A stretch of 64,000 nucleotides of DNA from Myxococcota bacterium. Lineage in GTDB: Bacteria; Myxococcota_A; Polyangia; Polyangiales; Sandaracinaceae. The notes under the pieces are model-generated. The model searched no databases. It was not told the DNA's origin and saw only the letters and a list, made by a program, of their open reading frames with translations. Positions within the stretch are counted from its first letter, which is position 1; every line of letters starts with the position of its first letter. A program made the translations under genes and the position numbers. The stretch covers positions 1-64,000 of the forward strand of contig JAYZQJ010000009.1 in assembly GCA_036149055.1 (NCBI GenBank), read 5' to 3'. This document shows, piece by piece, positions 29,642 to 51,467 of the stretch.

Positions 29642-29687
29642 GGGGGGACGGAGTGAACTTGTGAACTCACGTGGTCCGAATGCCTAC
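29642..29687 (+). repeat. Dispersed ~46-bp site, copy 1
   Basis: GGGGGGACGGAGTGAACTTGTGAACTCACGTGGTCCGAATGCCTAC. Confidence 0.95.
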
Positions 29688-29751
29688 GCGCAGCCGCCGA
29701 TTTGGGCCCGAAGCAGCTCGAGAGCGCGAGCGCTGTAGAATCGACGCCGCG

Positions 29752-30012
29752 ATGGAGCCGGGCGGCGTCGGATGGTGGGTGTACGTGCTGATCTCGGCGG
29801 ACGGCGGGCGCACCTACGTCGGCATCACCACCGACGTGGAGCGCCGCCTGCGGCAGCACAACGGGGAGCTCGCGGGCGGCGCGCGCTCCACCCGCGCGGG
29901 TCGACCCTGGAGCGTGGGCGTTCGGCGCGGTCCCTACGCGGACCGTGGCGAGGCGAGTCGACGTGAAGCGCAGATCAAGCGGCTGCGCGGTAGGCGCCGG
30001 CTCGCCCCCTGA
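29752..30012 (+). CDS. Small GIY-YIG endonuclease (UPF0213/SLX1-like)
   Basis: WVYVL...[18 protein letters not shown]...GARST..GRPW...E..IK. Confidence 0.9.
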
Positions 30013-30096
30013 GCCCGCGCCGCGATCGCATTCAGCACGGATCCCGTCGCGCGGTGGGCGTCGATTCCGACTCGAGTTGTGTACCCTCCTCGTCGC

Positions 30097-30537
30097 ATGC
30101 AGCGCTCTCCCCTCGAACAGCTTCGCGCCCTTCACGATGGACCGGCGCGGGGCGCCTCCGAGGCCGAGGTGGTCGCGCTCGAGAGAGCGCTGGGCACGCG
30201 CCTGCCCGCGGACTACCGCGCCTTCCTGCTCTGGATGGGGCGTGACACCGAGGGGATGTGGCAGGGCACCGACTGCTTCATCGACGACATCGTCGAGAAC
30301 ACGGAAGGGCTGCCCGAGCTCCTCGCCCTGCATGGTCTCGCTGGCGAGCTGGCGGAGAGGTACGTCTGCGTCCTCATGCACCAGGGCTACATCGCGCTCT
30401 GGTTCGACGTGCCCACGGACAGCGATGACCCGCAGGCCTTCCTGTTCCACGAGGGCCAGACCGAGCGCGGCATCCAGCCGGTCCAGACCGTGATGAAGAT
30501 GTTCCTCGACGACTACGAAGGTCTCTCTCTCGTCTAG
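30097..30537 (+). CDS. SMI1/KNR4 (SUKH) immunity-like protein
   Basis: GASEAEV.ALE..LG.RLP.DYRAFL..MG; HQGY..WF; DDP. Confidence 0.8.
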   Translation: MQRSPLEQLRALHDGPARGASEAEVVALERALGTRLPADYRAFLLWMGRDTEGMWQGTDCFIDDIVENTEGLPELLALHGLAGELAERYVCVLMHQGYIALWFDVPTDSDDPQAFLFHEGQTERGIQPVQTVMKMFLDDYEGLSLV

Positions 30538-30660
30538 TGTCAGAACTGGGCGCCACGTGCACCTATCGCAATCATGCCTGCTAGAGACCCTGGTTTGGGT
30601 CTCGCTCGTGGCGGGCTCGGGTCTCCCCGCAGACCACCAAATGCGGTGCAGTAGGACCCG

Positions 30661-31062
30661 TCATTCCTTTTCGTAGAACGCGAGCTCGGTAACGATCCTC
30701 CGATCCACACCGTCTAGAGAAACTACTCGAGCCACTTGGCGACCATCCTCAGCGAATAGCGGCTGAGGCATTACGCAAAGGACACCTACGGAGACATCCG
30801 CAAGCTGAGATCGCACGGAATCGCTACCACCCATCGCCAAGAGCTCGCCGTCGCATATGGAGTATCGAGCCCAGCTTGCGTCGGCCGAAACCGGTTCGAC
30901 GGTCGTCTGAAGGCACACTACGTGCGCCAACATTGGTTCCGGCGCCTCCGACCAGCTCTCAGCTGCCAGACGCCCGCAAGCGTCCGCTCCGGGAGAGGTG
31001 CCGCTCGCAGTGCAACCAAGGCAGAAGGCCGTCATGGCCAGGGCTGACAAGCGCAGGTTCAT
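30661..31062 (-). CDS. Hypothetical lipoprotein with atypical (AT-richer) codon usage
   Basis: Lipobox CLGC; start codon 11 bp from the G-run of repeat copy 2. Confidence 0.55.
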   Translation of the reverse strand: MNLRLSALAMTAFCLGCTASGTSPGADACGRLAAESWSEAPEPMLAHVVCLQTTVEPVSADASWARYSICDGELLAMGGSDSVRSQLADVSVGVLCVMPQPLFAEDGRQVARVVSLDGVDRRIVTELAFYEKE

Positions 31063-31073
31063 ACAAACGCGGA

Positions 31074-31118
31074 GGGGGACGGAGTGAACTTGTGGACTTA
31101 CGTCAGGCGAATGCCTAC
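31074..31118 (+). repeat. Dispersed ~46-bp site, copy 2
   Basis: GGGGGACGGAGTGAACTTGTGGACTTACGTCAGGCGAATGCCTAC. Confidence 0.95.
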
Positions 31119-31179
31119 GAGCGTCAGTTCCCTCATGACTTGCCTGCCTAGGAGCTCGTCGAACGAGGGCGACCCTTCG

Positions 31180-31674
31180 CTACTCGTAGGTGTGGCTCAC
31201 GAGGAGAGCACCGTTGGAGGCCGGAACGTCCACGCTGAGGATCGCTGAGCCGACGCAACTACGCTGACCCCCCGACAACACTGGGCGCGTCATCAGTGGT
31301 GCTCGCACTCGGCCCGATGCGTCGAATCTCACCTGCACGGTGAGCGGTGCGAACTCGCCGACGCACTCGCCGATGCGGTCCTCCAGCGATGCGAGAATCC
31401 TACTCGCTTCCCGCGCACGCTCGAGAGCGGCCGAGTTGGGGCGCGCGTCGCGAGCTGGAACGCATTGTCCGCCCGAGCATCGATAGGTCAGACGCTCGCT
31501 ACAGCCCGTCGCCTCATAGCCCCCTTGGTAGCCTTCGACGAGGGTGAGCTCTACCTGGTCGCATCCCTGAGTAAACGCAATCCGCCGAGCCGCATCCAGG
31601 ATCGTGAATCGTGACGTGCACGCCGATAGGGCAGGTACCAGCAGCACGAGCAACGTTGTCCAACGAAACGACAT
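31180..31674 (-). CDS. Hypothetical lipoprotein
   Basis: Lipobox LSAC; Cys pattern GC..Y.ATGC...Y.C. Confidence 0.6.
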   Translation of the reverse strand: MSFRWTTLLVLLVPALSACTSRFTILDAARRIAFTQGCDQVELTLVEGYQGGYEATGCSERLTYRCSGGQCVPARDARPNSAALERAREASRILASLEDRIGECVGEFAPLTVQVRFDASGRVRAPLMTRPVLSGGQRSCVGSAILSVDVPASNGALLVSHTYE

Positions 31675-31729
31675 CCTGGAATAGTAGCGCGCCATGGGTT
31701 TCCGGATGAGCTGCGCGTAGAATGCTCAC

Positions 31730-32362
31730 GTGCAGCTCGTCGAAGCGGCCTCGTGGATCGGCGAGATGATCGATGGCTTCGCCTCATCCGACGCTGCGCT
31801 GCTCGTCGGGGTCGCGTCGCAAGATCCCGAGGACGCCGGCGTGCCGCCTGAGATGCAGGTGGGGCCCGTCGACCCGGAAGGGTGGGTCGAGTGGGGCGTC
31901 CGACCTTCGGCCGTCGAGGCGCGAGATCTCGACGCTCTGGAGGCCGATCTCGGCTGCGCCCTGCCGACTCAGCTGAAGGCGTACCTCACGTCTCGGGCCC
32001 ACCTCTTCGAGCAGGTGCACTCCAAGCGGTATGGGCAGCTCATCATGCTACCGCCGCTGCCCACCCGCGAACCGCTCCGTGCCTTTCGCGCCCTGCTCAC
32101 CGGCTGGCTTCCGCTCGTGCGAGCGGGCTATTTGCCTTTCGGCGAGTGGGGAGACGGCTGGGGGCCGATGTGCATCGATCTCGGCGGCGTGAACGCGGAC
32201 GACGGCCCGGTCGTCTGGTTCGACCACGAGCGGCTCATCTCGCTCGGCGAAGACACCTGCGCCCGCCGAGACATCGTCGCTCCCCACTCGATCGAGCTCT
32301 ACCCGAGCTTCGTCGCTTGCCTCCAGGACGTGTTCGGGGTCACGCCATTGGCCGAGCGCTGA
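31730..32362 (+). CDS. SMI1/KNR4 (SUKH) immunity-like protein
   Basis: LEADLG.ALP..LKAYL, GYLPFG...DGWGP.C.D, GPVVWFDHE, YPSF. Confidence 0.75.
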   Translation: MQLVEAASWIGEMIDGFASSDAALLVGVASQDPEDAGVPPEMQVGPVDPEGWVEWGVRPSAVEARDLDALEADLGCALPTQLKAYLTSRAHLFEQVHSKRYGQLIMLPPLPTREPLRAFRALLTGWLPLVRAGYLPFGEWGDGWGPMCIDLGGVNADDGPVVWFDHERLISLGEDTCARRDIVAPHSIELYPSFVACLQDVFGVTPLAER

Positions 32363-32492
32363 GGGTCTCCCCGCGTCGAGGCGGCGCGCGCTCGACCAGG
32401 CTCGCGAGAGCTGAAGCAGCAAACAGACGTCGACTCGGGCGACGACGCGCCCAAGAAGCTCACCCGTCTTCGCGCTCGTATACCTACGCGTC

Positions 32493-33233
32493 TCAGCCGC
32501 TCACGACGATCGGTAGCCGTCGGTCCGCGGCCTCCTCCAACGCCTCGACGAGCAGCTCGAGGTTGGCGAGGATCGCGTCGCGCAGCCCTCCGCCGAATGG
32601 CGGCTCGTCGATCAACGAACCGAGCGGAGCGCCGAAGACCTCTTCGGCGAACCGCTCGAGCTCCGTGCCCAAGGCGTCGATCGAGCCGAGGATGTGATCG
32701 GCGCCCACGAGCGGGTGCGGCAGCGGCGCGTGCACGAACACGGTGGCGATCCCGAGCGAGAGCACCTGGGGATACCGGCCGCCCCCCTCGCTCCAGACCC
32801 GTCGGGTCAGCGCGTCGGAGCTCGCGTTCAGGAGCCGCTCGAGCGAGCCCGGCTCGACGCCGGACGAGAGCGCGGCCGCGATGCCCCGCATCTCGTCGAG
32901 ACCGTCAGGCGCGAGCTTGCCCAGATACCCCTCTTCCTCCTCCCACGCCTCGACGTCATTCGGGTCGGGGAGCTCCTCGCTCCAGGAGACGGGCGCGCCC
33001 GCGGCATCTCCCAGCATCCGCTGAAGTCGCCGGACCGCGGCCTCGGCCGACCTGCGCTGCGCCGCCGTCAGCTCCTCTGGATACTCTGGTCGAGCGTCCG
33101 ATCGGATCACGCGAGGCGGCGCCTGCTCGCCCGGTCGAGCGTAGCTGGCTCGGTCCACGAGGGCGTCCAGCGAGGCGTCATCCAGCCCGGCCCACGCCAT
33201 CGCCAGCGGCTGCACCGAGACGTCGATTCCCAC
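32493..33233 (-). CDS. Hypothetical protein
   Basis: GTG start MGIDV..; acidic globular ORF. Confidence 0.55.
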   Translation of the reverse strand: MGIDVSVQPLAMAWAGLDDASLDALVDRASYARPGEQAPPRVIRSDARPEYPEELTAAQRRSAEAAVRRLQRMLGDAAGAPVSWSEELPDPNDVEAWEEEEGYLGKLAPDGLDEMRGIAAALSSGVEPGSLERLLNASSDALTRRVWSEGGGRYPQVLSLGIATVFVHAPLPHPLVGADHILGSIDALGTELERFAEEVFGAPLGSLIDEPPFGGGLRDAILANLELLVEALEEAADRRLPIVVSG

Positions 33234-33259
33234 TCGACGTGTGTACCATCCTCGTCGGC

Positions 33260-34000
33260 ATGCGGTGTCTTCCTCTCGAACGGCTTCGCTGCAATCGATC
33301 GCTCGTCGTGGTGCTGGCGGGACTCGTAGTCGGCTCGACTGCCATTGGATGTGCTGGCGATGGGCCGCGCCTCCCATCCGCTCCCGAAAGCTCCTCCGAA
33401 CCCGCTCGTACCTCTGAGCGTCCACGGCGCTCGTCCAACGCGAGCCCTCGCGCTGCATCTTCCACGCGTCCCGCTCCCCGCGGCCCCGCGACGGATACAG
33501 AGAGCTCCCGTGCCGTGATCCCACTTCCGGACAGCTTCGGAGCGCCCAGCGGAGGCGCATCCGTGGTCATGACGAGTGCGCCGGAGCGCGACCGGTTGGC
33601 GATGCTCGCCCACGTCCCCGACTTGGTAGATCAGAGCGTTTCGCCGGATCCCCGCGGCGACGACCGGGATTGGAACCCGGCAGTGTTCGCCGGCGGTCAT
33701 GTGCTCCGACGTGGAAGCTGGTGGGTCGATCGCCGGGAACGTACGTATCTCGCCATACCCTTTCGGGGGCGAGCGTGGGGTTGCGGAATCGCGTTCTTCG
33801 AACCTGTCGGGGAGGACGCCGTGACCTTCCTCGGAATCACGCAGCGAATGCCTCCAGGAGAAACCTGTGTCGTTGGAGCCACGGCGGCAGGGACCCTCGT
33901 CGTCGCCACCCGATACTTCGACGCCGCCATCGACCGTGCCCTGTTCCACTCGACGCCGTCGGCCTGGAACGAAGCCACGTACCCCTTGTTCGCTCCGTGA
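33260..34000 (+). CDS. Hypothetical lipoprotein
   Basis: Hydrophobic N-terminus ending AIGC, Ser/Pro linker, globular C-terminus. Confidence 0.5.
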   Translation: MRCLPLERLRCNRSLVVVLAGLVVGSTAIGCAGDGPRLPSAPESSSEPARTSERPRRSSNASPRAASSTRPAPRGPATDTESSRAVIPLPDSFGAPSGGASVVMTSAPERDRLAMLAHVPDLVDQSVSPDPRGDDRDWNPAVFAGGHVLRRGSWWVDRRERTYLAIPFRGRAWGCGIAFFEPVGEDAVTFLGITQRMPPGETCVVGATAAGTLVVATRYFDAAIDRALFHSTPSAWNEATYPLFAP

Positions 34001-34035
34001 GCCTCCCGCAATTACCTACGACACGTCTCCTCCGG

Positions 34036-34067
34036 GCTGTTGCGATATCGAGCGAGATCGCAACAGC
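34036..34067. terminator. Intergenic hairpin, probable terminator or operator
   Basis: GCTGTTGCGAT...ATCGCAACAGC 11-bp stem. Confidence 0.5.
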
Positions 34068-34129
34068 GTTTGCATCGAGGTCAGCGCTTGATACTGTCGC
34101 CCCAGAAACGCGAGTGAAGGGGGGAAGCG

Positions 34130-34957
34130 ATGAAGAGACTTGCTCTTCTGTGGGTGGTGAGCGTGGGCGTCATGGCTTGCGACGGCGAGGAGCCCATGGC
34201 GGCCGACGCGGGGATCGGCACCGACGCTGGTCCGATGGAGGCACGCGATGCGGGAGGCTCGGAGGACTCCGGGATGGCCGAGGCGGACGCGAGCATCGAC
34301 GACGCGGGGACGACGGACGCCGGGATGGCGGATGCGGGGCTCGTCGACCCCTGCGGCGACGGTGTCGTCCAGGAGGACGCCGGCGAGCTTTGCGACGATG
34401 GGAACGACGTCGACACGGACGGTTGCCTGAGCAGCTGCCGCTTCGCGTCCTGCGGCGACGCGATCCCTCAGACGGGTGTTCCGCAGTTCTCTCTCTTCGA
34501 AGACTTCGAAGACGGCACGTTCCCCACGGGGACCACGTTCGGCGTGGATGGCGAATGGTCGATCGAAGCGGATCCCGTCGGTGGGAGCATGGCCGGCCAC
34601 GTCGTGCCCCCGGGGACCGGAAGCCGACTGATGGTCATCCCGTTCGATGCACCGACATCCGGGACTCTCCGGTTCCGCTGGAGTGTGGGTCAGGAGCAGT
34701 TTGCGGTCTCCGTGGATGGTGAGTCCCTCCGCGATCCCTCAGGCGACTGGCGCTGGCAGTTGTGGGAAGTGCCGCTGTCCGCCGGCCCGCACGAGCTCAG
34801 CGTGCACTGCAGGGGAAGCACCGCTGGTGTGTTCCACGTCAGCGGCTGCTGGATTGACAACCTCTGGTTCGTCGCCGACGAGACGGCGGACGAGGCCTGC
34901 GACGACGGGAACGACGACGAAGGAGACGGCTGCACCTCGTCCTGCGAAGCCACATGA
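34130..34957 (+). CDS. Lipoprotein with Myxococcus Cys-rich (DUF4215-like) repeats
   Basis: Lipobox VMAC; CGDG..E.CDDGN...DGC...C motifs at both ends. Confidence 0.8.
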   Translation: MKRLALLWVVSVGVMACDGEEPMAADAGIGTDAGPMEARDAGGSEDSGMAEADASIDDAGTTDAGMADAGLVDPCGDGVVQEDAGELCDDGNDVDTDGCLSSCRFASCGDAIPQTGVPQFSLFEDFEDGTFPTGTTFGVDGEWSIEADPVGGSMAGHVVPPGTGSRLMVIPFDAPTSGTLRFRWSVGQEQFAVSVDGESLRDPSGDWRWQLWEVPLSAGPHELSVHCRGSTAGVFHVSGCWIDNLWFVADETADEACDDGNDDEGDGCTSSCEAT

Positions 34958-35000
34958 GTCGTGTTCGACGTGGGCGCCGGGTGCGGTTGCAGCAACGCGT

Positions 35001-35048
35001 GGGGGGGGACGGAGTGAACTTGTGAGCTTACGTCCGTCAATCGCCTAC
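35001..35048 (+). repeat. Dispersed ~46-bp site, copy 3
   Basis: GGGGGGGGACGGAGTGAACTTGTGAGCTTACGTCCGTCAATCGCCTAC; its terminal CTA is the stop codon of the minus-strand gene 35045-36325. Confidence 0.95.
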
Positions 35049-36325
35049 AACTTGCCTTCGCGCTCGTACTCCAGGTCGCCGACGAGGCGGAAGCGGGCGC
35101 CGACGGGCTCGGCGAGGAGCGGCTTCAGCTCGGGGTAGCGCGCGAGCAGCTCGGGGACGGGGAGCACCACGAAGCCGGGGGCTTCGGGGGACTCGGTGCC
35201 GGAGCTGATCACCCAGCCGCTGTCGTCCCGGCGTCGGGGCTCGTGGCGGTCGACGAAGCGCGCCGGCTCCGCGTCCTCGAGCACCGCGCGGGTGATCAGC
35301 GCGCCCTGCCATCGGTGGGCCATGCGCCGCATCGAGCGCTGCACGCTCTCCGCGCCCACGTCCATCCGCACACGCACCAGCCGACCGTCCGAGTCGACGT
35401 CGCGCACGATGGCGTAGACGCCGTCGCCCCAGCGGTTGTCGAAGCCGCAGACGCGCCGGTCGTTCACCCGGATCTCGCCCGCGCGCGAGGCCTGGCTGCG
35501 CACCTGCCGGTTGATCTGCTCGACGTGGCAGTGCGGACGGTAGTCGACGGCGAGCGCGAGGCCGCGCTCCTCCATCGCCGCCTGGATCGGCGCGGCGTGC
35601 TCGCCCACCTCGTCGACCGGGATGTCCAGCCAGCCGTGCTCGCGCTCGTCGATGCGCGGCGCACCGAACTCCTCCGCGACCGCCGCCGCGTCGCGGCCCC
35701 AGAAGACGTAGTCCGCCTTGCCGTCGAGCGAGCGGCCGGCGTGGAACGCGTCGAGCACGTCGAGGTCGATGCACGCGAGCTGGCCGTGGTCGACCCGCAC
35801 GCCGAAGACGCGCTCGCTCCGCGCCACCGTGGCGTCCGGCTCGACGACGACGTCGATCGAGCGGAAGCGGCCCGCGAATTCTCCGGGCGGCATCGGCACG
35901 CCGACCACCGGCAGCGCTCGATCACGGGGCAGCCCGTCGACCGCCACCGCCCAGCGCCGGTCGAAGAGGAAGTGCCCGATGCCCGGCTTGCGAGCGGTCA
36001 GGGCGCGGCGCGCGCGCTCGGCGTGAGGGACCTGCGCGGGGAGGGCGACCGCGCGGGCGTCGAAGCCCGCGGCCTCCGCGAAGTCGGCGAAGTGCCGCAG
36101 CGCCTCCTCTGCCTCGCGCACGTCGTAGCGCCGCACCGGGTCGTAGCTCCGGTCGTAGGCGATCCCGGCCTCCCGGGCGTCGGGCCCCTCGATCGCGAGA
36201 TCGTGCAGCGGCTCGCGCCGATGCGCCGGCACGCTGCGTCGCTCCCAGTGCCGCGCCAGCCCGAGGTCGAGCAGGATGAGCACCCCGCTCGGGCAGTCGA
36301 CCTCACCGAGGTGCACATCGAACAT
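35045..36325 (-). CDS. Protein with C-terminal DUF2185/Imm33-like domain
   Basis: WGDG.Y motif; C-terminal R.EP...DSGW...GTES....P.L.PLL..PVG. Confidence 0.65.
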   Translation of the reverse strand: MFDVHLGEVDCPSGVLILLDLGLARHWERRSVPAHRREPLHDLAIEGPDAREAGIAYDRSYDPVRRYDVREAEEALRHFADFAEAAGFDARAVALPAQVPHAERARRALTARKPGIGHFLFDRRWAVAVDGLPRDRALPVVGVPMPPGEFAGRFRSIDVVVEPDATVARSERVFGVRVDHGQLACIDLDVLDAFHAGRSLDGKADYVFWGRDAAAVAEEFGAPRIDEREHGWLDIPVDEVGEHAAPIQAAMEERGLALAVDYRPHCHVEQINRQVRSQASRAGEIRVNDRRVCGFDNRWGDGVYAIVRDVDSDGRLVRVRMDVGAESVQRSMRRMAHRWQGALITRAVLEDAEPARFVDRHEPRRRDDSGWVISSGTESPEAPGFVVLPVPELLARYPELKPLLAEPVGARFRLVGDLEYEREGKL

Positions 36326-36364
36326 CGCGCGAGAGTAGCAAGACGTGCGGTACGTTAGCCTCGC

Positions 36365-43446: not shown

Positions 43447-43462
43447 TGCAGCCGTCGTGCCG
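43447..43462 (-). promoter_or_regulatory. Sigma54 promoter of the efflux operon
   Basis: Reverse strand CGGCACGACGGCTGCA (GG-N10-GC). Confidence 0.7.
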
Positions 43463-43523
43463 ACGCATGGTTCGTGCGAGGGGAGGCCCTCATGGCCCCG
43501 ATTTCCCCAAGTCGCCGGGCGAA

Positions 43524-43542
43524 GCGTTGCGAGATACAACGC
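43524..43542. promoter_or_regulatory. Palindromic putative enhancer
   Basis: GCGTTG-CGAGATA-CAACGC about 60 bp upstream of the sigma54 promoter. Confidence 0.5.
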
Positions 43543-43551
43543 TCGCGTTGG

Positions 43552-45036: not shown

Positions 45037-46381
45037 GTCGCTGCTCGTCGTCGACGACGACCCGGGCGTGGTCGAGTGGCTGGTCGAGGCGCTGGGCGAG
45101 CGCGAGTTCGACGTGGAGGGCGTCACCGATCCCCGGCGGGCCCTGGAGCGCGTCGGCGAGCGGGCGTTCGACCTCGTGGTCTCGGACGTCGAGATGCCGG
45201 CGATGCGCGGCCTGGAGCTGGTCGAGGCGATCCACGCGCGCCGCGCGGAGCAGCTCGTGGTCCTCATCACCGCGTTCGGCTCGATCGAGCTCGCGATGAA
45301 GTGCGTGCGGGCCGGCGCCTCGGACTTCCTCGCCAAGCCGTTCACCATCGACGCGCTGGTGCACGCCATCGAGCGGACGCTGCGCGAGCGGCGCATGAAG
45401 CGGGAGATCGTCCGGCTGCGGAGCACGCGGGCCTCCGGCGCGGGCGCCGGCGACCTGGTGGCCGAGAGCGCGGCGATGAAGGCGGCGCTCGACCTCGCGC
45501 GCCGGGCCGCCCGGGCCTCGTCCCCGGTGCTGCTCAGCGGCGAGACCGGGGTCGGCAAGAGCGCCCTCGCGCGCTTCATCCACGCGCGCAGCGAGCGCGC
45601 CTCACGCGACCTCGTCCAGCTCAACTGCGCGGCGCTGCCGGCGGGGCTGGTCGAGGCCGAGCTCTTCGGCGTGCGCAAGGGCGCGTTCACGGACGCGCGC
45701 CACGACCGGCCCGGCCTCTTCGCGCTGGCGGACGGCGGCACGCTCTTCCTGGACGAGGTCGGGGAGATGGCGCTCGAGGTCCAGCCGAAGCTGCTCCTCG
45801 CGCTCGACCGCAGCGCCTTCCGTCCGGTCGGCGGCGGTGACGAGGTCCGCTTCGACGTCCGCCTCGTCGCGGCGACCAACCGCCCGCCCGAGGAGGCCGT
45901 GCGCGAGGGCCGCCTGCGCGCCGACCTCTACCACCGGCTCAACGTGATCCAGATCGACGTCCCGCCGCTGCGCGAGCGGCTCGCGGACATCCCGCCGCTC
46001 GTCGACCAGATCCTGCACGCCCTCGGCGAGCGCGCCGGGAGGACGGTGCTCGGGGTCAGCGACGAGGCGATGCGCTGGCTCTGCGGCCGGGCGTGGCCGG
46101 GCAACGTGCGCGAGCTCGCCAACGTGATCGAGCGCGCGGTGATGCTCAGCGACCACGACGTGCTCGTGATCGAAGACTTCCTGCGCGGCGGCCGCCCCAC
46201 CGACCCCGACGCCGGCTTCCTCGAGCGCGCCGCCGAACAAGGCATCGAGCTGTCCGAGCTCGAGCGCCGCTACATCGAGCTCGTGCTTTACCGCTGCGGA
46301 GGCAACAAAGCCAAAGCCTCCCGCGTCCTCGGCATCGACCGCAGCACCCTGTGGCGCAAGCTCTCGACCCCTCGGAGCTGA
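45023..46381 (+). CDS. Sigma54-dependent response regulator
   Basis: Receiver, GETGVGKS, GAFTDA, FLDEVGE, WPGNVREL, Fis HTH. Confidence 0.95.
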   Translation: MTRRRSLLVVDDDPGVVEWLVEALGEREFDVEGVTDPRRALERVGERAFDLVVSDVEMPAMRGLELVEAIHARRAEQLVVLITAFGSIELAMKCVRAGASDFLAKPFTIDALVHAIERTLRERRMKREIVRLRSTRASGAGAGDLVAESAAMKAALDLARRAARASSPVLLSGETGVGKSALARFIHARSERASRDLVQLNCAALPAGLVEAELFGVRKGAFTDARHDRPGLFALADGGTLFLDEVGEMALEVQPKLLLALDRSAFRPVGGGDEVRFDVRLVAATNRPPEEAVREGRLRADLYHRLNVIQIDVPPLRERLADIPPLVDQILHALGERAGRTVLGVSDEAMRWLCGRAWPGNVRELANVIERAVMLSDHDVLVIEDFLRGGRPTDPDAGFLERAAEQGIELSELERRYIELVLYRCGGNKAKASRVLGIDRSTLWRKLSTPRS

Positions 46382-46388
46382 CCTCGCT

Positions 46389-46418
46389 CGCGGAGGGGGG
46401 GACCGCGGAGGGGGGGAC
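46389..46418 (+). repeat. Perfect 15-bp tandem duplication at the left end of site copy 4
   Basis: CGCGGAGGGGGGGAC twice (46389-46403, 46404-46418). Confidence 0.9.
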
Positions 46419-46456
46419 GGAGTGAACTTGTGAACTTGCGTAGTTCGAATGACTAC
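46410..46456 (+). repeat. Dispersed ~46-bp site, copy 4
   Basis: GGGGGGGACGGAGTGAACTTGTGAACTTGCGTAGTTCGAATGACTAC. Confidence 0.95.
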
Positions 46457-46519
46457 AGGCGCAGCTCTCATCGACTCGTTTGACGCTCCTCGCCGCGGTG
46501 TGGAAGTTTCCGTGTCCTC

Positions 46520-47335
46520 ATGAAGACGCAGTACTCCTTCGCCCTCGTCCTGCTCACCCTCGCGGCCGCCGTCGGCTGCGGAGACGACCCCGGCCCGGCC
46601 GACGCGTGCGTCGCCGCCTGCGAGCCCGACAGTGGCCCGGCCGACAGTGGCCCGGCCGACAGTGGCCTGACCGACAGCGGCGTGGACAGCGGCGTGATGG
46701 AGCTGTGCGAGGGCGACGACGCGACCGGTGACACCGACGCCGACGGCGTGTGCGACGACCTCGACGCCTGCACGGGCGATGACGCCACCGGGGACGCGGA
46801 CGAAGACGGCGTGTGCGACGACATGGACGCGTGCGCGGGCGACGACGCGACGGGCGACGCGGACGTCGACGGCGTGTGCGACGACATGGACGCGTGCACG
46901 GGCGACGACGCGACGGGCGACGCGGACGAAGACGGCGTGTGCGACGACGTCGACGCTTGCCCGGGCCAGGACGACGCGATCCTGAGCGCGCCCGTCCTGC
47001 CGCCCTTCGACCTCGACGTGGTCGCGGTCTCGCTCGACCCCGGGGCGGCCGGCGACAACACCGTGCGCGCCTCCCTCAGCAACGGCGGCGCCAATTCCCT
47101 CGACGGCACGGCGGTGACCCTCCAGTACTCCGCCGACGGCGGCAGCACCTGGCCGGTGACCCAGACGTTCGTCCCCAGCGGTCTCGGCGCGACCTGCGAC
47201 ACCGAAGAGGTCGCCTTCACCGCGCCGCTCGCCGCCGGCTCGGGAACCGTCGAGCTCTGCGTTCGCGTCAACCCGCAGGTCGCCGGGGACCCCGACGCGG
47301 CCGATCAGCGCTGCGCGACGATCACGATCCCGTAG
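46520..47335 (+). CDS. Lipoprotein with thrombospondin type-3-like Asp-rich (Ca-binding) repeats
   Basis: Lipobox AVGC; 20-aa unit C.GDDATGD.D.DGVCDD.DA four times; 15-bp PADSG repeats. Confidence 0.8.
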   Translation: MKTQYSFALVLLTLAAAVGCGDDPGPADACVAACEPDSGPADSGPADSGLTDSGVDSGVMELCEGDDATGDTDADGVCDDLDACTGDDATGDADEDGVCDDMDACAGDDATGDADVDGVCDDMDACTGDDATGDADEDGVCDDVDACPGQDDAILSAPVLPPFDLDVVAVSLDPGAAGDNTVRASLSNGGANSLDGTAVTLQYSADGGSTWPVTQTFVPSGLGATCDTEEVAFTAPLAAGSGTVELCVRVNPQVAGDPDAADQRCATITIP

Positions 47336-47339
47336 CGCA

Positions 47340-47858
47340 GTGGAAGCGACCCGACGGAGACCGGCCCGGCAAAGCGTGCCGGCGCAGGCCGATGTCTCAT
47401 GGGCAGAGTCTCGTCTGGGCTTCAGCCTTCCGGACGCCTACGTCGAGTATGCATCGACGTGGGGCCGTGCCGTTCTCTCGGACCTGATCTACGTCTTCGT
47501 GCCGACCAGAGCCGTTCCGGACAACATCGTCGTCGGGCAGAGTCAGCGCCAGGCGACGCTGTCAGACATCGACGCTGGGCTCGCGGAGCTGGAGCCGGAT
47601 GGGAGTGTCGAACTGGTAGAGCGCTTCGTCATGTTCGGCATCTCATTCAATGGTCATAGATTCGCCTGGGATGGGGCTAGCCAGGCGGACGATCCCGTCG
47701 TCTATGTGGTGGGAGAGAACGCTCTCGGTGTCCGCAGTGTCGGCGTCGGATTCTCGGGCTTCGTGAATGGCGTGTGTACGCAAGCCTCCAGGCAGCTGCT
47801 TGGTCCGGGCTATGGACCGCTGCATCCACAGCTGAAGCCCTTGCCCATGCGCGAATAG
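47340..47858 (+). CDS. SMI1/KNR4 (SUKH) immunity-like protein, AT-richer
   Basis: AESRLGFSLPDAYVEY...WG; FG.S.NG..F.WD; VYV; start uncertain. Confidence 0.7.
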   Translation: MEATRRRPARQSVPAQADVSWAESRLGFSLPDAYVEYASTWGRAVLSDLIYVFVPTRAVPDNIVVGQSQRQATLSDIDAGLAELEPDGSVELVERFVMFGISFNGHRFAWDGASQADDPVVYVVGENALGVRSVGVGFSGFVNGVCTQASRQLLGPGYGPLHPQLKPLPMRE

Positions 47859-47932
47859 GCCCACCGTTCGCGCCGGCCCGGTGGCTCGAGGCCGCCGGGC
47901 ATGAGACGCTCGCCACCGGCGAGCGTCATGCG

Positions 47933-49192
47933 ATGTTGACCATTCTGCATCTCGGTTGGGCCGACGTGGACCCCGCGACGAACCCCTACGACCCGGAGCG
48001 CATCGCGGCGGTCGTCGACTCCGCGCTCCCCGCCACCGCCGTCCAGCCGCCGAAGCGGGACGAGAAGCGCAAGCGCCTCCAGGATGACGTCGGCCGCTCC
48101 CTCCTTGCCTCCGAGGCTCCCTGGATCTCCGGGTGGCAGTGGTCGGTCGGCGGGGGCGGCATCGCCGACGGATACTGTTGTCCGGGGCACAGCCTGCGCG
48201 GCAGCCCGGAGGAGATGCGCGGCCTGATCCTCGGTGGCGTCTCCAGCCTTCGGAGCCGGCTCGAGGAGCTCGCGCGCCGGTTCGAGCAGTGGGACGACGA
48301 GGTGGAGGGCCTCGACGAGGGCGCCGCCGCGCGCCGGATCGCGCCCCGCCTCCTCCCGCTTGCGGTCGAGTGGACCCGCGAGGAGGACGCCTGGTACAGG
48401 AGCTTCGAGCGCATGCTCGCGTGGGCGCTCGAGCGCCGCGGGATCGCGCCGCCGGTGGCCGAGGTGCTGGTGCGCGAGGCGATCGGCGGCCGCTTCGAGA
48501 GCTGGAGCGGGCCGGCCGACGTCACCGCGCGCGCCGTGTTCGACGACCTCGCCACGCTGACGCGCGAACGCCGCGAGCGCCCGCCGGTCGACGCGCTCGC
48601 CGCCTGGCTCTCCGCGCGGGGCCACGTCCGCTGGGACCGAGCGCGGCACTACGACCCGGACCCGGTCCGGCGCGACGGCCACCGCCGGTTCATCGAGGAG
48701 ACGGATCGCGCACGGGACCCCGCGCGCGCGGATGACCTCCTGGCGGCGCTCTCCGCGGCGCGCGCCGACGCCCGCGCCGGACGCCCGCTCACCCTCGAGC
48801 GCCTGACCCGGTGGCAGAGCCTCGTGCTCGGCGAGCCGGTCGCCTTCCGCACCGAGGTCGCCTTCGCCCACGGCGGCGCCGAGCGCTACGGCCTCGAGCC
48901 CGACACCGAGCCCCGCTTCGCCGCCTGCCTCGAGCAGGCCAACGGCGCCGACGCGACCCCGACCGCGCGCGCTGCGCGCGCCTACCTCGACGTCTGCTTC
49001 TTCCACCCCTTCCCCGATGGCAACGCCCGCGCCGCCCGCCTCGCCCTCGACTACGTGCTGACCCGCGCCGGCCTCGCGCTGCACGCCGCCGCCCCCGTCT
49101 TCGTCGTCGCCCGTCGCGCCGACGACCACCTCGGCCCCTACGGCTTCATGCTCACCATCGACTACCTGAGCGGCCCGATCGGCTGGCGCTGA
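47933..49192 (+). CDS. Fic-domain protein
   Basis: FFHPFPDGNARAAR Fic motif near the C-terminus. Confidence 0.85.
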   Translation: MLTILHLGWADVDPATNPYDPERIAAVVDSALPATAVQPPKRDEKRKRLQDDVGRSLLASEAPWISGWQWSVGGGGIADGYCCPGHSLRGSPEEMRGLILGGVSSLRSRLEELARRFEQWDDEVEGLDEGAAARRIAPRLLPLAVEWTREEDAWYRSFERMLAWALERRGIAPPVAEVLVREAIGGRFESWSGPADVTARAVFDDLATLTRERRERPPVDALAAWLSARGHVRWDRARHYDPDPVRRDGHRRFIEETDRARDPARADDLLAALSAARADARAGRPLTLERLTRWQSLVLGEPVAFRTEVAFAHGGAERYGLEPDTEPRFAACLEQANGADATPTARAARAYLDVCFFHPFPDGNARAARLALDYVLTRAGLALHAAAPVFVVARRADDHLGPYGFMLTIDYLSGPIGWR

Positions 49193-49209
49193 CGAGCCCC
49201 GCGTCGTCG

Positions 49210-49701
49210 TCAGCCGGAGCTCGCGAGTCGCTGAAGCTGACGCTCCACCTCCACCCACGGCAGCCGTCGCCCGCTCGCCTTCATCTTCGCGTAGGCCGTC
49301 CGGAGCTGCGGCGTGCTGACCACCCCGGCGCGGACGAGGCGCTCGGCGACCCACAGGGTTCCGTGGACTTCGACGCCCTCGGCCCGTGCCGCGCTCCTCA
49401 GGCTGCGATCGCCCGTGAGCAGCGGGCAGCTCTCCTGCTCCGCGGCGGCCAGGGCGGCGAGGTCCAGTCGACTCGGTTTGCGATATTTTGCGGCGAGCTC
49501 GACCGCGCGGGCGATGGTCCCGGCGGAGAGCTCGACGAGGACGAGGCCGTGGTCGAGGAGGTGAGCGTGCTCGTCTCTCAGCTCATCCTCGAACAGCAGG
49601 TCTGGAACGCCCACGGATTCGGGGAGACGAAACAGCGCCTGCAGCAGGCCGCCATCCTCGAAGTCGATGAAGATGTTCGTGTCACTGATGAGCAGCGCCA
49701 C
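49210..49701 (-). CDS. PIN-domain protein (putative toxin)
   Basis: ISDTNIFID, D..AL..A, LLTGD..LR..A..EGVEVHGTLW. Confidence 0.85.
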   Translation of the reverse strand: MALLISDTNIFIDFEDGGLLQALFRLPESVGVPDLLFEDELRDEHAHLLDHGLVLVELSAGTIARAVELAAKYRKPSRLDLAALAAAEQESCPLLTGDRSLRSAARAEGVEVHGTLWVAERLVRAGVVSTPQLRTAYAKMKASGRRLPWVEVERQLQRLASSG

Positions 49702-50749
49702 GCGGGCCCTCGAAGCCTAGGCGACGACGGAACGCGGTGACGGGCATACCCATCAGCTCCGCGGCCTTGCTCGTCGAGATCAGCTCCTCGGCGAGAGCGT
49801 GGAGCACCAGCCGCTCGAACAGCTTCGGTGTCTCGGGCGGGACTGGCTCGCCGGGCTCTCGCTTGCGCCATCCCTTCGCCGAGAAGAGCCGGAAGAGCTT
49901 CGTCTTGGTCGCGCCGGTGATGACGGAGGCGTCGGCGGCGCGGAACACCCACGCCATCATGCTCACCCCATACTCGTGCTTCAGCGCGTGCAGCTCGCGG
50001 GGCTCGAGACGGTTGCGGTGCGACCCGAGCTCGTGGCGCACGGTCGGCTCCGGCACGAGGAAGGCGCCCGCGAAGCGATCGCACGCCTTCTCCTCGTCCA
50101 GGTCCGGGCCCAGCCGAGCGCCGAGCACGAGATGTCCCAGCTCGTGCGCCATCGTGAAGCGCTGTCGATCGCCGGGCCACGCGGAGCCGACGACCACCAC
50201 GGGCAAGTCGCCGACCCTCGCCGCGAGCCCGTCGAACTTGGCCGAGGCGTCGGCGTCGGTGGTGAGCACCACCAGCCCGCGCTCCTCGAGGGTGTCGGCG
50301 AGGGAGGGGATGGCGTTGTGACCGAGATGCCAGGCCTCGCGCATGGCGAGCGCCGCGGCCTCGATCTGCGCGAGGCTCTCGATGCGCCGCGGCACCGTGC
50401 TCGGAACCTCGAAGCGCGCGACCGGCGGCGTCGGGAAGAGCGCCACGAGCTCCACGAATCGCTCGACCTGATCGAGAATGTCGGCCTCGATCCGAGCCAG
50501 CTGCTTCTTCGAGATCGACGCGCGCTTTCGATACTCGGGCTCTTCGAGCTCGACGGTGGTCGGGCGGAGAAAGAACTCGGTCCGCGTGCCGAGCGCACGC
50601 GCCAGGCGGATCAGGCTCTTGGAGGACGGGTGGGCGAGCCCGCGCTCGAACTTCGAGATCGCCATCGCGCTCAGCTCCGCCCGATCGGCGAGCTCTCGCT
50701 GCGAGAGCCCCGCGGCGGCGCGCGCCCGTTTGATTCGTTCGCCCATCAT
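49682..50749 (-). CDS. XRE-HTH plus ImmA/IrrE metallopeptidase
   Basis: GLSQRELA..ISKFERG HTH; RQRFTMAHELGH; E..CDRFAGAFL.P. Confidence 0.92.
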   Translation of the reverse strand: MMGERIKRARAAAGLSQRELADRAELSAMAISKFERGLAHPSSKSLIRLARALGTRTEFFLRPTTVELEEPEYRKRASISKKQLARIEADILDQVERFVELVALFPTPPVARFEVPSTVPRRIESLAQIEAAALAMREAWHLGHNAIPSLADTLEERGLVVLTTDADASAKFDGLAARVGDLPVVVVGSAWPGDRQRFTMAHELGHLVLGARLGPDLDEEKACDRFAGAFLVPEPTVRHELGSHRNRLEPRELHALKHEYGVSMMAWVFRAADASVITGATKTKLFRLFSAKGWRKREPGEPVPPETPKLFERLVLHALAEELISTSKAAELMGMPVTAFRRRLGFEGPRGAAHQ

Positions 50750-50804
50750 CGGTTTACAGATTCCCAGGGAGGTCCCTTCAACGTAAACCAGCGCTGGCCG
50801 GGGC

Positions 50805-51377
50805 TCAATCGCTGGGCGACCCTTGGCGGTCCGCCGTCGCCCGAGCGCGGGCGAGGGCCTCGTCCAGGTCGACGACCAGCGCGTCGACGTCCTGCGAGGC
50901 GCCGGTCGCCAGCAGGTGGTGGGCGTACCCGTCGGTTTGGAGCACCGCCGATTCGGACTCGGACCGGGTCTTCACCAGCCGCGCGACGTCGAGCCGACAG
51001 GAGAGGCGCGACCCGAGCACCCGGTCTTTGTAGACCACCTTCTTCGGCCCGATGCGCAGGCGCTCCTCCGCGAGGGGCCACTGCATCACGACGATCGCGA
51101 TCAGCATGCCGACCGGGAGGAGGACCCGGAGGCCGACCATCGAGCCCAGGCAGACGGCGGCCAGCGCGACCGGGAACACGAGCAGGAGCCCCCAGCCGCT
51201 CGCGACGCGGGCGCGGCGATACTCCGTGGTCGCGCCGTCCGTCCGGAGCCTCCGCCACCCGGTCCGCGCGCTCTCGCCGGGCGGCGCACGGAGCGGTCCC
51301 GCGGCCGACGTCATCGTCGCCACCACTCCGCGCCGCGCCTGCTCCGGCTCCACGCCGGTTGGGATATCGGCGGACAT
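50805..51377 (-). CDS. Hypothetical membrane protein
   Basis: Two TM segments followed by a PH-like soluble region. Confidence 0.5.
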   Translation of the reverse strand: MSADIPTGVEPEQARRGVVATMTSAAGPLRAPPGESARTGWRRLRTDGATTEYRRARVASGWGLLLVFPVALAAVCLGSMVGLRVLLPVGMLIAIVVMQWPLAEERLRIGPKKVVYKDRVLGSRLSCRLDVARLVKTRSESESAVLQTDGYAHHLLATGASQDVDALVVDLDEALARARATADRQGSPSD

Positions 51378-51420
51378 CAGGGGAACTACATTCCTCCGGC
51401 CATCGAGGCCACGCCGGCTC

Positions 51421-51467
51421 GGGGGGGACGGAGTGAACTTGTGAACTTACGTAGTCCGAACGACTAC
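51421..51467 (+). repeat. Dispersed ~46-bp site, copy 5
   Basis: GGGGGGGACGGAGTGAACTTGTGAACTTACGTAGTCCGAACGACTAC; perfect GTAGTC/GACTAC hairpin. Confidence 0.95.

What the first reader, a model, noticed from the sequence alone, without database searches (positions are those of the whole stretch)
29642..51467. Five co-oriented fixed-length ~46-bp sites punctuate an accessory gene array: candidate undescribed cassette/module system
Seen: copies at 29642, 31074, 35001, 46410 and 51421, all on the + strand and all at gene boundaries. Consensus is G5-8 ACGGAGTGAACTTGTG RRCTYRCGT N9 GMCTAC. The 21-bp core GGGGGACGGAGTGAACTTGTG is invariant, there is an internal GTGAACTT-like direct repeat, the spacer varies in sequence but is always 9 nt, and the terminal CTAC is invariant. 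The 3' part can fold into a short hairpin (perfect GTAGTC/GACTAC in copy 5, near-perfect in copy 4, bulged in copy 2, weak in copies 1 and 3). The sites delimit modules of about 1.4, 3.9, 11.4 and 5.0 kb carrying immunity-like, lipoprotein, efflux and TA genes. I saw no copy in the first 29.6 kb. Established: GTAG plus a hairpin is the signature recognised by HUH (Y1, RAYT/TnpA-REP) single-strand nucleases, and on the minus strand each site begins with GTAG. Directly repeated sites between variable genes are the architecture of integron and pdif-type arrays, but this sequence matches neither attC nor dif. Inference: these are recombination or insertion sites of a gene-cassette system acting in trans, since no integrase or transposase is visible in the window.
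Basis: partly seen in the sequence, partly recalled or inferred. Interest (0 to 1): 0.9.

Follow-up and report, generated by a model that had tools for sequence, protein, structure and literature searches.

The report
Single-arm hairpin repeats at indel breakpoints
The five sites are single-arm copies of a species-specific repeat (62 arms in the genome, half of them paired into 71-100-base hairpins) that is likely spread by a single-strand-DNA-cutting (HUH) transposase, and in close strains insertions or deletions end at the outer tip of three of the five, so they are likely breakpoints of an ordinary repeat family rather than sites of a dedicated gene-cassette system.

Summary
In detail: five exact, co-oriented copies of GGGGGACGGAGTGAACTTGTG lie at 29643, 31074, 35004, 46412 and 51423, none expected by chance. 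They are not private to this region. The 9.9-Mb genome holds 62 such arms: 16 inverted pairs that form 71-133-bp hairpins and 30 single arms, all in intergenic DNA by a rough gene call.

A sister family with the same first bases (GGGACGGAGT) flanks, in inverted orientation, a single-copy gene. That gene's predicted fold best matches the E. coli REP-associated tyrosine transposase, with a DnaA-like DNA-binding tail. This places the sites in the known class of RAYT/TIRYT-associated repeats.

A strain about 99% identical, and contigs from other public runs, keep all five sites in the same order. No difference seen runs from one site to the next. However, a 7-kb indel, a 1.7-kb indel and a 15-nt duplication each end at the outer G-run tip of sites 1, 5 and 4.

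The integron-like cassette reading is not supported. The HUH hint is supported indirectly. The link between tips and breakpoints is real, and its mechanism is open. Earlier notes of this scan report a similar pattern in other genomes.

The parts
29642..29687 (+). Site 1: single arm (G-run, GGGGACGGAGTGAACTTGTGAAC..., GTGG-N-CCTAC mini-hairpin region)
   Evidence: Exact core; sequence. Its outer tip (29644) is the right-hand breakpoint of a 6993-bp segment (22651-29643). That segment is absent in the ~99% strain and in contigs of runs X2 and X5, and present in a 15.5-kb contig of X8.
31074..31118 (+). Site 2: single arm
   Evidence: It is kept unchanged in the other strain.
35001..35048 (+). 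Site 3: single arm with an 8-G run. The TAG stop of the minus-strand gene 35045-36358 lies inside its terminal CTAC.
   Evidence: distance -4. It is kept in the other strain.
46410..46456 (+). Site 4: single arm, preceded in this genome by a 15-nt tandem duplication (about 46389-46403) that spans 8 flank bases plus GGGGGGAC
   Evidence: The duplication is absent in the other strain and in contigs of X5 and X10. A contig of X8 carries 2669 nt between window 46367 and 46477.
51421..51467 (+). Site 5: single arm with the best mini-hairpin (GTAGTC/GACTAC)
   Evidence: In the other strain 1.72 kb (an Imm5 gene and an unknown gene) sits between window 51416 and the G-run. A sixth, similar single arm lies 4016 bp further on.
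22651..29643 (.). Strain-variable 7-kb segment ending at the tip of site 1. It carries an unknown ORF, a methyltransferase-like gene, DUF5995, an amine-oxidase-like gene and a LuxR-type regulator, and no mobility gene.

Best explanation
The five sites are single-arm ('singlet') copies of a repeat family found throughout this genome, which was likely spread, and is likely still nicked at its G-rich outer tip, by a RAYT/TIRYT-type HUH single-strand nuclease encoded elsewhere in the genome; they are not sites of a separate cassette system.

Shown:
- The arm GGGGACGGAGTGAACTTGTGAACTTACGTAGG, followed by N7 and CCTAC, occurs 62 times. Thirty-two arms make 16 inverted pairs that fold into long hairpins, and 30 stand alone.
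- A second family starts with the same GGGACGGAGT. Two direct copies on one side and two inverted copies on the other flank a single-copy gene whose model best matches E. coli TnpA-REP.
- At one locus the two strains carry one family or the other between identical outer flanks.
- One hairpin is a chimera of the two families.
- Strain differences end at the outer tip of sites 1, 4 and 5, and of one further singlet elsewhere.

Inferred:
- The same enzyme, or a lost or unassembled relative, recognises the shared GGGGACG end on single-stranded DNA.
- Nicking and faulty rejoining or repair at that end would make it a preferred end-point of deletions, insertions and small duplications of the neighbouring DNA.
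- The cluster of five co-oriented singlets would reflect repeated local events in a very plastic island rich in immunity genes.

Any effect on neighbouring genes is untested. Many copies lie within 25 nt of a stop codon.
For: Family and layout:
- 60 copies at up to 2 mismatches (31 forward, 29 reverse); the reversed-pattern control gave 0.
- 62 arms at E<1e-3, making 16 pairs and 30 singlets. By my rough gene call, 45 of 46 units are not inside a gene.
- the pairs are 71-133-bp hairpins (one folded at -30 kcal/mol).

Link to an HUH enzyme:
- a sister family of about 55 copies begins with the same GGGACGGAGT.
- it flanks a 344-aa ORF at C63:7979-9010 carrying SNHIHL and YIHNNP motifs.
- NCBIfam REP_Tyr_transpos, E=2.8e-8, below the curated cut-off.
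- 125 homologues, several named RayT by their source, some with PF01797 or PF08299.
- model pLDDT 87; best PDB fold match 4er8_A (TnpA-REP, E=1.8e-5), then ISDra2 and IS608 TnpA. The C-terminus matches DnaA domain IV.
- the gene is single-copy, with one 34% identical paralogue that has its own repeat family.
- a chimeric hairpin lies at C143:22655-22724.
- the two families are swapped between the strains at one site, between identical flanks.

Breakpoints:
- among about 15 structural differences in 225 kb aligned to a 97.5-99.6% identical strain, three have an end within 5 nt of a G-run tip (site 1: 0 nt; site 5: 2-5 nt; C260: 4 nt). There is also the 15-nt duplication across the tip of site 4.
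- the site-1 junction and the site-4 difference recur in contigs of other runs.

Published parallels: TIRYT genes flanked by TIRs with the motif GGGGWSAS, whose TIRs form families of single, dimeric and grouped copies (PMC3733652, passages read). Y1 subclass 2.1 has a DnaA_C-like tail (PMC6006769, passages read).
Against: - No RAYT-like gene is flanked by this family itself. The 9 PF01797 loci and the two RAYT-like genes carry other repeats. The link rests on about 11 shared terminal bases, one chimera and one allelic swap.
- No clean insertion or excision of a 44-nt or 71-nt unit was seen between the strains. All 6 gains or losses of arms sit inside larger replacements.
- Singlets are more uniform than paired arms: 13 of 30 match the 31-nt consensus exactly, against 0 of 32 paired arms. 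This is the reverse of the published REPIN picture, where singlets decay (PMC3116915, passages). It suggests singlets have a role of their own.
- Nine other breakpoints in the same loci carry no such motif, so the region is plastic in general.
- A run of 6-8 G could be fragile without any enzyme.
- The terminus matches GGGGWSAS at only 7 of 8 positions.
- No cleavage has been shown.
Confidence: 0.62

Rival explanations
1. Cassette or module system. The 46-bp sites are recombination sites at which a trans-acting enzyme inserts or excises the DNA between neighbouring sites, building the array.
For: - Five co-oriented sites lie within 22 kb of accessory genes, a cluster never reached in 20,000 random placements.
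- The variable DNA abuts the same (outer) end of sites 1 and 5.
- The other strain has a sixth site followed by a paralogue of the gene that follows site 5.
- Elsewhere, a gene plus its site is replaced as a block (C96).
- Inverted singlet pairs bracket 1-2 kb of ordinary genes at C221, C143 and C80.
Against: - All five sites and their order are kept in the ~99% strain.
- None of about 15 differences runs from one site to the next.
- The 7-kb and 1.7-kb variable segments have no site at their far end.
- Orientation towards the neighbouring genes is inconsistent.
- The same arm is half of ordinary 71-bp hairpins in 16 places.
- There are only 4 tyrosine recombinases in the genome, none on a contig that carries the repeat.
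Confidence: 0.13
2. Host-serving DNA or RNA element. The singlet is a binding site or a 3'-end element (transcript stabiliser, terminator or translation brake) kept by selection at each locus. Breakpoints gather at its G-run only because long G-runs are fragile.
For: - The arm and CTAC are nearly invariant while the 7-nt loop varies, which points to constraint at each locus rather than recent copying.
- Many copies lie within 25 nt of a stop codon, and three share the stop with the CTAC.
- The arm holds a tandem GTGAACTT repeat that could be a protein site, read directly from the sequence.
- The site-4 change is a short duplication across the G-run.
Against: - There is no constant strand relation to the neighbouring gene.
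- Singlets fold weakly (-2 to -8 kcal/mol).
- No Rfam family matches.
- The family is absent from all 40 relatives searched, including the same genus, which is unusual for a host regulatory site.
- The kinship with repeats that flank a RAYT-like gene is unexplained by this reading.
Confidence: 0.15
3. Ends of a DDE-type miniature transposon (MITE). The arm is a terminal inverted repeat used by a classical cut-and-paste transposase, and singlets are solo ends.
For: The pairs look like back-to-back inverted repeats. The arm starts with GGGG, as the inverted repeats of some transposon families do (recalled, not tested). Sister-family elements of about 170 bp have inverted ends.
Against: No full-length element with a DDE transposase was found between any pair of arms. 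No target-site duplication is evident at the ends shown. The only gene bracketed by related repeats has an HUH Y1 fold.
Confidence: 0.05

Closest known systems
TIRtron / TIRYT systems (Di Nocera et al. 2013, PMC3733652; TnpA-Y1 subclass 2.1 of Quentin et al. 2018, PMC6006769)
   Same: The gene is a Y1 HUH protein longer than a classical RAYT, with a DnaA_C-like helix-turn-helix tail. It is flanked by inverted repeats that start with GGGG, and those repeats also form a moderately abundant genomic family of single, dimeric and grouped copies (passages read). Seen here.
   Different: The family in the window is not the one that flanks the gene. Its end, GGGGACGG, fits GGGGWSAS at 7 of 8 positions. 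Neither a mini-hairpin (GTAGG-N7-CCTAC) at the inner end of every single copy nor indel breakpoints at the tip appears in the passages I read.
REPIN / RAYT systems of Pseudomonas and enterobacteria (Bertels & Rainey 2011, PMC3116915)
   Same: Short extragenic repeats occur mostly as inverted doublets that form hairpins of about 71-110 bp. There is a single-copy HUH transposase with its own cognate repeat. Several RAYT-repeat pairs share one genome (here at least three repeat families, each next to a Y1 gene). Singlets exist beside doublets.
   Different: Here singlets are as numerous as doublets (30 against 16) and more uniform than doublet arms. In SBW25 singlets are rarer and more decayed (passages read). 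The singlet ends at one fixed base after CTAC. The GTAG is part of the stem, not a 5' tag.
IS200/IS605-family ends (IS608, ISDra2)
   Same: The fold of the associated enzyme matches. These enzymes use sub-terminal hairpins and cut at fixed short distances from them on one strand. That could explain a fixed inner end and a fixed outer end, and also co-orientation (mechanism recalled, not tested here).
   Different: No left-end/right-end pair encloses the transposase together with this family. No target tetranucleotide was identified. The elements are far shorter than an IS.
Integron attC arrays without integrase (CALINs) and pdif module arrays
   Same: Directly repeated short sites lie between accessory genes, including toxin-antitoxin-like and acetyltransferase or glyoxalase genes elsewhere in this genome.
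   Different: There are no R''/R' core sites. The sites have no fixed relation to the open reading frames. The modules hold many genes on both strands. No site-to-site gain or loss is seen between strains. There is no integron integrase. All sites are co-oriented, unlike the alternating pdif sites.

Membership tests
REPIN/RAYT (REPtron) | Short repeat, many copies, in extragenic DNA | tested here: met
   60 copies at up to 2 mismatches and 62 arms by nhmmer. By my rough gene call, 45 of 46 units are not inside a gene.
REPIN/RAYT (REPtron) | Replicative unit is an inverted doublet forming a hairpin | tested here: inconclusive
   16 doublets of 71-133 bp exist. The five sites of the finding and 25 others are singlets.
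REPIN/RAYT (REPtron) | A single-copy RAYT gene flanked by the same repeat | tested here: not met
   No Y1 gene is flanked by this family. The sister family with the same 10-11 terminal bases does flank one at C63. The genome is 96% complete in 289 contigs, so a cognate gene could be unassembled.
REPIN/RAYT (REPtron) | Singlets are decayed remnants, less alike than doublets | tested here: not met
   13 of 30 singlets are identical to the 31-nt consensus, against 0 of 32 doublet arms.
TIRtron/TIRYT (Y1 subclass 2.1) | HUH/Y1 core plus a C-terminal DnaA_C-like or HTH domain | tested here: met
   This holds for the C63 protein, which lies outside the window. H60, H62 and Y123 are invariant in 25 homologues. 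The best fold match is 4er8_A, and the tail matches DnaA domain IV.
TIRtron/TIRYT (Y1 subclass 2.1) | Flanking inverted repeats with the motif GGGGWSAS | tested here: inconclusive
   The repeats beside the gene and the window's sites begin (G)GGGACGG, which fits 7 of 8 positions.
TIRtron/TIRYT (Y1 subclass 2.1) | The enzyme binds and cuts the repeat | not testable with these tools
   This needs biochemistry.
Integron attC / CALIN | R''(RYYYAAC) ... R'(GTTRRRY) core sites in an imperfect palindrome | tested here: not met
   I read these from the sequences. The nearest strings (TGTGAAC, GTTAACA) break the consensus, which I recalled rather than took from a tool.
Integron attC / CALIN | One site per cassette, in a fixed orientation downstream of its ORF | tested here: not met
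   The neighbouring genes face either end of the site with 5' or 3' ends. The modules hold 2-7 genes on both strands.
Integron attC / CALIN | Cassettes gained or lost from site to site; an IntI integrase | tested here: not met
   No site-to-site difference was seen among about 15 differences. The genome has 4 tyrosine recombinases, none on a contig with the repeat.
pdif / Xer modules | 28-bp XerC-spacer-XerD sites in alternating orientation around modules | tested here: not met
   All five sites are co-oriented. Likeness to dif was not scored with a model.
DDE-type MITE | Target-site duplication and a parent IS with the same ends | tested here: inconclusive
   No duplication is visible at the ends shown, and no parent IS was found. 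The true ends of the paired form are uncertain, because the outer flanks CCGAAnnGGGAC are also inverted.
Any Rfam RNA family | Match to a curated covariance model | tested here: not met
   No match at the sites at gathering score. At E up to 1 on 15.1 kb around them there was only a chance-level snoRNA hit elsewhere in L007.

The most novel reading that the evidence does not exclude
The singlets are one-ended working sites of an HUH (TIRYT) enzyme. It cuts at the GGGGACG tip and joins or removes whatever DNA lies next to it. Arrays of co-oriented singlets would then build and prune accessory-gene islands, here an immunity-gene island. That would be a single-strand, integrase-free counterpart of gene capture, and a host-level reason why these domesticated transposases and their repeats persist.
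Probability: 0.17. Interest if true: 0.85.

Novelty: new variant of a known kind. Interest (0 to 1): 0.5.

Why it matters
What RAYT/TIRYT enzymes and their repeats do for or to their hosts is an open question. They are single-copy, vertically inherited and persistent, yet no function is established (PMC3116915 and PMC6006769, passages read).

This genome offers a tractable case. It has a small family and a natural pair of ~99% identical strains, plus further runs that hold relatives. Three of the five clustered singlets have an indel or duplication ending at the same terminal bases.

If this holds in more strains and the enzyme cuts there, repeat tips would be shown to steer gene gain and loss in accessory islands. 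If it does not hold, the sites are one more species-specific REP-like family.

Tried and rejected
- Synteny with the same-genus genome G001. Homologues of neighbouring window genes sit on different contigs all along the window, including its first 29 kb, so G001 cannot place breakpoints. One local case is suggestive only: genes 50805-51377 and 53233-53607 are adjacent in G001, and the intergenic DNA does not align.
- Scans of 185,579 species genomes for either family's end found 0 stretches. The window's own genome may be left out of that collection.
- 40 relatives had 0 matches.
- The GIY-YIG gene next to site 1 (29753-30012) is the only small GIY-YIG gene in the genome. The other two hits are 600-aa ORFs. 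It is a neighbour, not a partner.
- A short peptide reading from the GTG inside the arm was rejected. The frames end after 14-25 codons with no conservation past the repeat, as read.
- Promoter or Shine-Dalgarno readings were not pursued, because the relation to downstream genes is inconsistent.
- phmmer of the C63 protein against PDB sequences found nothing. A 25-sequence profile hit only DnaA domain IV. The fold search was needed to see the HUH core.
- Covariation in the mini-hairpin is uninformative. The GTAG/CTAC pairs are nearly invariant, and only 2 of 30 singlets show a compensatory fifth pair.
- The left end of the 7-kb segment is not a repeat.
- No integrase lies near the tRNA gene at 61 kb.
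- One case hints that the loop and CTAC pre-exist in the target: at C260 the other strain lacks the arm but keeps GTCGACCTAC. It is a single case and is left open.
- Parts of the window without contig cover in the laid runs were not interpreted.

Full report
**1.

- The 21-nt core GGGGGACGGAGTGAACTTGTG occurs exactly five times in the window, always on the + strand, at 29643, 31074, 35004, 46412 and 51423. No shuffle gave any match even at three mismatches.
- The five copies align without gaps over about 46 nt. The layout is a G-run of 5-8, an invariant arm, a variable stretch of constant length, then CTAC.
- There is no further copy, no minus-strand partner and no copy of the related family in the window.
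- From open frames, third-position G+C and Pfam, all five lie between genes.
- The genes between them are:
  - a small GIY-YIG protein, three SUKH-type proteins and an Imm33-type immunity protein;
  - a beta-lactamase-fold protein;
  - an RND pump with its fusion and outer-membrane partners;
  - a histidine kinase with a sigma-54 activator;
  - a repeat-rich secreted protein and a Fic protein;
  - a PIN protein with an Xre/M78 protein.
- No Rfam family matches the sites.

**2. The site is a genome-wide repeat**

The window is contig C9:1-64000 of a 9.9-Mb assembly of about 72% G+C in 289 contigs.

- The 20-mer occurs 60 times at up to two mismatches, 31 forward and 29 reverse. The reversed-pattern control gave none.
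- A profile search finds 62 arms at E<1e-3.
- Thirty-two arms make 16 inverted pairs. Eleven pairs are 71 bp and the others are 90-133 bp. The paired form reads GGGGACGGAGTGAACTTGTGAACTTACGTAGG-N7-CCTACGTAAGTTCACAAGTTCACTCCGTCCCC. One such pair folds at -30 kcal/mol as DNA.
- Thirty arms stand alone ('singlets'), including the five in the window.
- A singlet is the left arm plus the central mini-hairpin, and it stops at one fixed base after CTAC.
- By my rough gene call, 45 of 46 units are not inside a gene. Most lie within 25 nt of a gene's 3' end. In three cases the neighbour's TAG stop lies inside the CTAC, site 3 among them.
- The orientation of singlets towards the neighbouring genes is not constant.

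**3. Distribution**

- None of 40 relatives has the repeat, including one genome of the same genus.
- Neither end sequence was found in the collection of 185,579 species genomes.
The nearest named homologues and the seawater runs are consistent with that.

**4. Kinship with a Y1 (HUH) transposase system**

- The ten bases GGGACGGAGT occur 144 times against 7 for the reversed word. About 55 of these continue as TTCCTTGTTGCC.
- This sister family forms 55-bp hairpins, elements of about 170 bp and composites.
- Two direct copies on the left and two inverted copies on the right bracket a 344-codon ORF of lower G+C at C63:7979-9010.
- Evidence on the ORF's identity:
  - It has SNHIHL and YIHNNP motifs.
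  - It scores below threshold on Pfam Y1_Tnp (E=0.005).
  - It scores below the curated cut-off on NCBIfam REP_Tyr_transpos (E=2.8e-8, model positions 4-141 of 146).
  - It has 125 homologues at E<=1e-5. Several are named 'REP element-mobilizing transposase RayT' by their source, and some carry PF01797 or PF08299.
  - In 25 aligned homologues both histidines and the tyrosine are invariant.
  - The model has mean pLDDT 87.
  - Its best PDB fold match is the E. coli REP-associated tyrosine transposase bound to a REP hairpin (4er8_A, E=1.8e-5), followed by ISDra2 and IS608 transposases.
  - Its C-terminal domain matches DnaA domain IV.
- The gene is single-copy, with one 34% identical paralogue at C209. 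The paralogue is flanked by a third family, CGGGGACGATCCTATTCA.
- The nine loci that pass Pfam Y1_Tnp sit among a fourth repeat, GATCTCTGCCGAATCGA.

This architecture is in print as the TIRtron/TIRYT arrangement. In it, RAYT-like genes are flanked by inverted repeats sharing GGGGWSAS, and those repeats can form families of single, dimeric and grouped copies (PMC3733652, passages read). It also matches Y1 subclass 2.1, which has a DnaA_C-like tail (PMC6006769, passages read).

The window's family itself flanks no such gene. Its link to the system rests on three things:
- the shared terminal bases;
- a chimeric hairpin at C143:22655-22724;
- a locus where the two strains carry one family or the other between identical outer flanks.

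**5.

A scan of metagenome contigs for the 23-mer gave 23 loci, all from one record set. They align to this genome at 97.5-99.6% identity, so they come from a close strain.

In the compared stretches 30 arms are shared, 4 are only in the other strain and 2 only in this one. All five window sites are present there, in the same order, with at most one base changed.

Differences that touch the sites:
- **(a) Site 1.** The other strain reads ...CACGCGGA-TACT-GGGGACGG.... This genome has 6993 bp (22651-29643, five ordinary genes) in place of TACT. The right breakpoint is therefore the first base of the repeat. Both forms recur in contigs of other public runs. The short form is in X2 and X5. The long form is in a 15.5-kb contig of X8.
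- **(b) Site 5.** The other strain has 1.72 kb (an Imm5 protein and an unknown ORF) between window 51416 and the G-run. The junction can be placed to within 2-5 nt.
- **(c) Site 4.** This genome has a 15-nt tandem duplication made of 8 flank bases plus GGGGGGAC. It is absent in contigs of X5 and X10. A contig of X8 carries 2669 nt between window 46367 and 46477.
- **(d) Elsewhere, at C260.** The other strain has about 590 bp with a small ORF where this genome has the arm. The two share only GTCGACCTAC, so the left breakpoint is in the G-run and the right one is in the loop.
- **(e) At C96:167.** A high-copy repeat of about 300 bp sits 6-10 nt outside the tip in this genome only.
- **(f) At C96:3088.** A gene plus its site is replaced by unrelated DNA in the other strain.
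- **(g) Extra singlets in the other strain.** It has a sixth singlet 4016 bp after site 5, followed by a 93% identical partial paralogue of the gene that follows site 5. It also has a tandem pair of singlets where this genome has one.

Of about 15 structural differences in 225 kb, three have an end within 5 nt of a tip, and there is also the site-4 duplication. Nine other breakpoints show no such motif. No difference runs from one site to the next.

With breakpoints placed at random over the loci, I would expect about 0.04 such coincidences. With breakpoints limited to the intergenic gaps that hold the sites, the joint chance is still of the order of 1e-3 to 1e-4. Both figures are my own arithmetic, not a tool result.

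**6. What does not fit the standard picture**

- In Pseudomonas fluorescens SBW25, REP singlets are rarer than doublets and less alike, and are read as dead remnants (PMC3116915, passages read). Here singlets are about twice as many units as doublets. Thirteen of 30 equal the 31-nt consensus, while none of 32 paired arms does.
- The arm and the GTAG/CTAC bases are nearly invariant while the 7-nt loop varies. This speaks for constraint on each copy, or for a process that renews the arm but not the loop.
- Five singlets in 22 kb, all co-oriented, is far beyond chance. Other singlets also come in close twos, at C96, C221, C260 and C143.
- No clean gain or loss of a bare 44-nt or 71-nt unit was seen between the strains.

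**7. Reading**

I file the sites as singlet members of a RAYT/TIRYT-associated repeat family. This is a known kind of element, in a form that departs from the published one.

The mechanism I commit to is inferred. The Y1 enzyme recognises the shared GGGGACG end on single-stranded DNA. Nicking there, with faulty rejoining or repair, would make the tip a preferred end of one-sided indels.

The integron-like cassette reading fails its own tests: fixed relation to ORFs, site-to-site gain and loss, and a recombinase. Some evidence speaks for a gene-capturing role and cannot be dismissed. The variable DNA is one-sided, a gene plus its site is replaced as a block at C96, and the other strain has an extra site followed by a paralogue. 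I keep that role as the boldest reading, at about one in six.

A host-function reading (binding site or 3'-end element with a fragile G-run) remains possible.

Earlier notes of this scan describe RAYT-type repeats at strain breakpoints in other genomes (e1-9943233, e1-2827786; AI notes, not checked by me). The pattern may therefore be general.

**8. Limits**

- The assembly is fragmented and 96% complete, so a cognate Y1 gene or full-length element could be missing.
- Gene calls are my own rough ones.
- Only one close strain could be read base by base.
- The public runs were available as contigs only, and their letters at site 4 were not shown.
- I read passages, not whole texts or supplements, of the three papers cited.
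- My searches for myxobacterial RAYT literature and for REP-breakpoint literature returned nothing that bears on this family. That does not show that nothing is in print.

Noticed in passing
window 9658-9878 (+): A cobalamin riboswitch (Rfam RF00174, 80 bits) lies just upstream of an 836-codon ORF at 9821-12331.
   Followed up: no
window 61050-61133 (-): A tRNA gene lies at the edge of the accessory stretch. No integrase was found between 54 and 64 kb. Further immunity-type genes (Imm5 at 59312-59983, DUF6882) lie just before it.
   Followed up: partly
G000 C128:129380-129560, C9:102248-102434 and dozens of contig ends: A high-copy repeat of about 190-330 bp (90-98% alike) sits at many contig ends and probably breaks the assembly. 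Four singlets of the studied family lie right next to one of its ends, and one such insertion is absent in the close strain.
   Followed up: partly
G000 C209:57998-59338: A second RAYT-like gene (34% identical to the C63 one) is flanked by its own repeat, CGGGGACGATCCTATTCA, whose 14-mers occur up to 58 times. The Pfam Y1_Tnp loci (for example C132 and C4) sit among a fourth repeat, GATCTCTGCCGAATCGA. A fifth hairpin, GGGGACGCTCGTCGTCATATCGTC..., appears in locus L034. Several Y1-repeat pairs therefore coexist, most with a GGGGACG end.
   Followed up: partly
window 46689-47003: A 63-bp tandem repeat (4-5 units, Cys/Asp-rich when translated) lies inside the ORF 46520-47335. The unit number differs between strains: about 90 bp extra in the other strain, and a 15-nt insertion in X2 and X8.
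   Followed up: no
window 50805-51377 (-): This 190-codon ORF is an internally shortened form of a 503-codon ORF (DUF6348 plus SUKH-1) in the close strain, which has 1.48 kb more.
   Followed up: partly
window 32436-33724: A 1.29-kb segment with a 355-codon ORF is replaced in the close strain, and in contigs of X2 and X5, by 23 nt that are the reverse complement of the segment's first bases. This looks like a deletion with a small inversion, not at a repeat.
   Followed up: partly
window 29753-30012 (+): A small stand-alone GIY-YIG nuclease-domain gene (86 codons) lies 65 nt after site 1. It is the only one of its size in the genome and is 80% identical at DNA level to one in the same-genus genome.
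   Followed up: partly
L051:6001-6099 versus G000 C88:7383-7666: At one locus, between identical outer flanks (CCCCGAATAGGGACCTG ... TCCTCCGGGTTCGGGGAC), one strain has a two-hairpin element of the studied family and the other has a 312-bp composite of the sister family. The inner parts are swapped and the GGGGACGGAGT ends are shared.
   Followed up: partly
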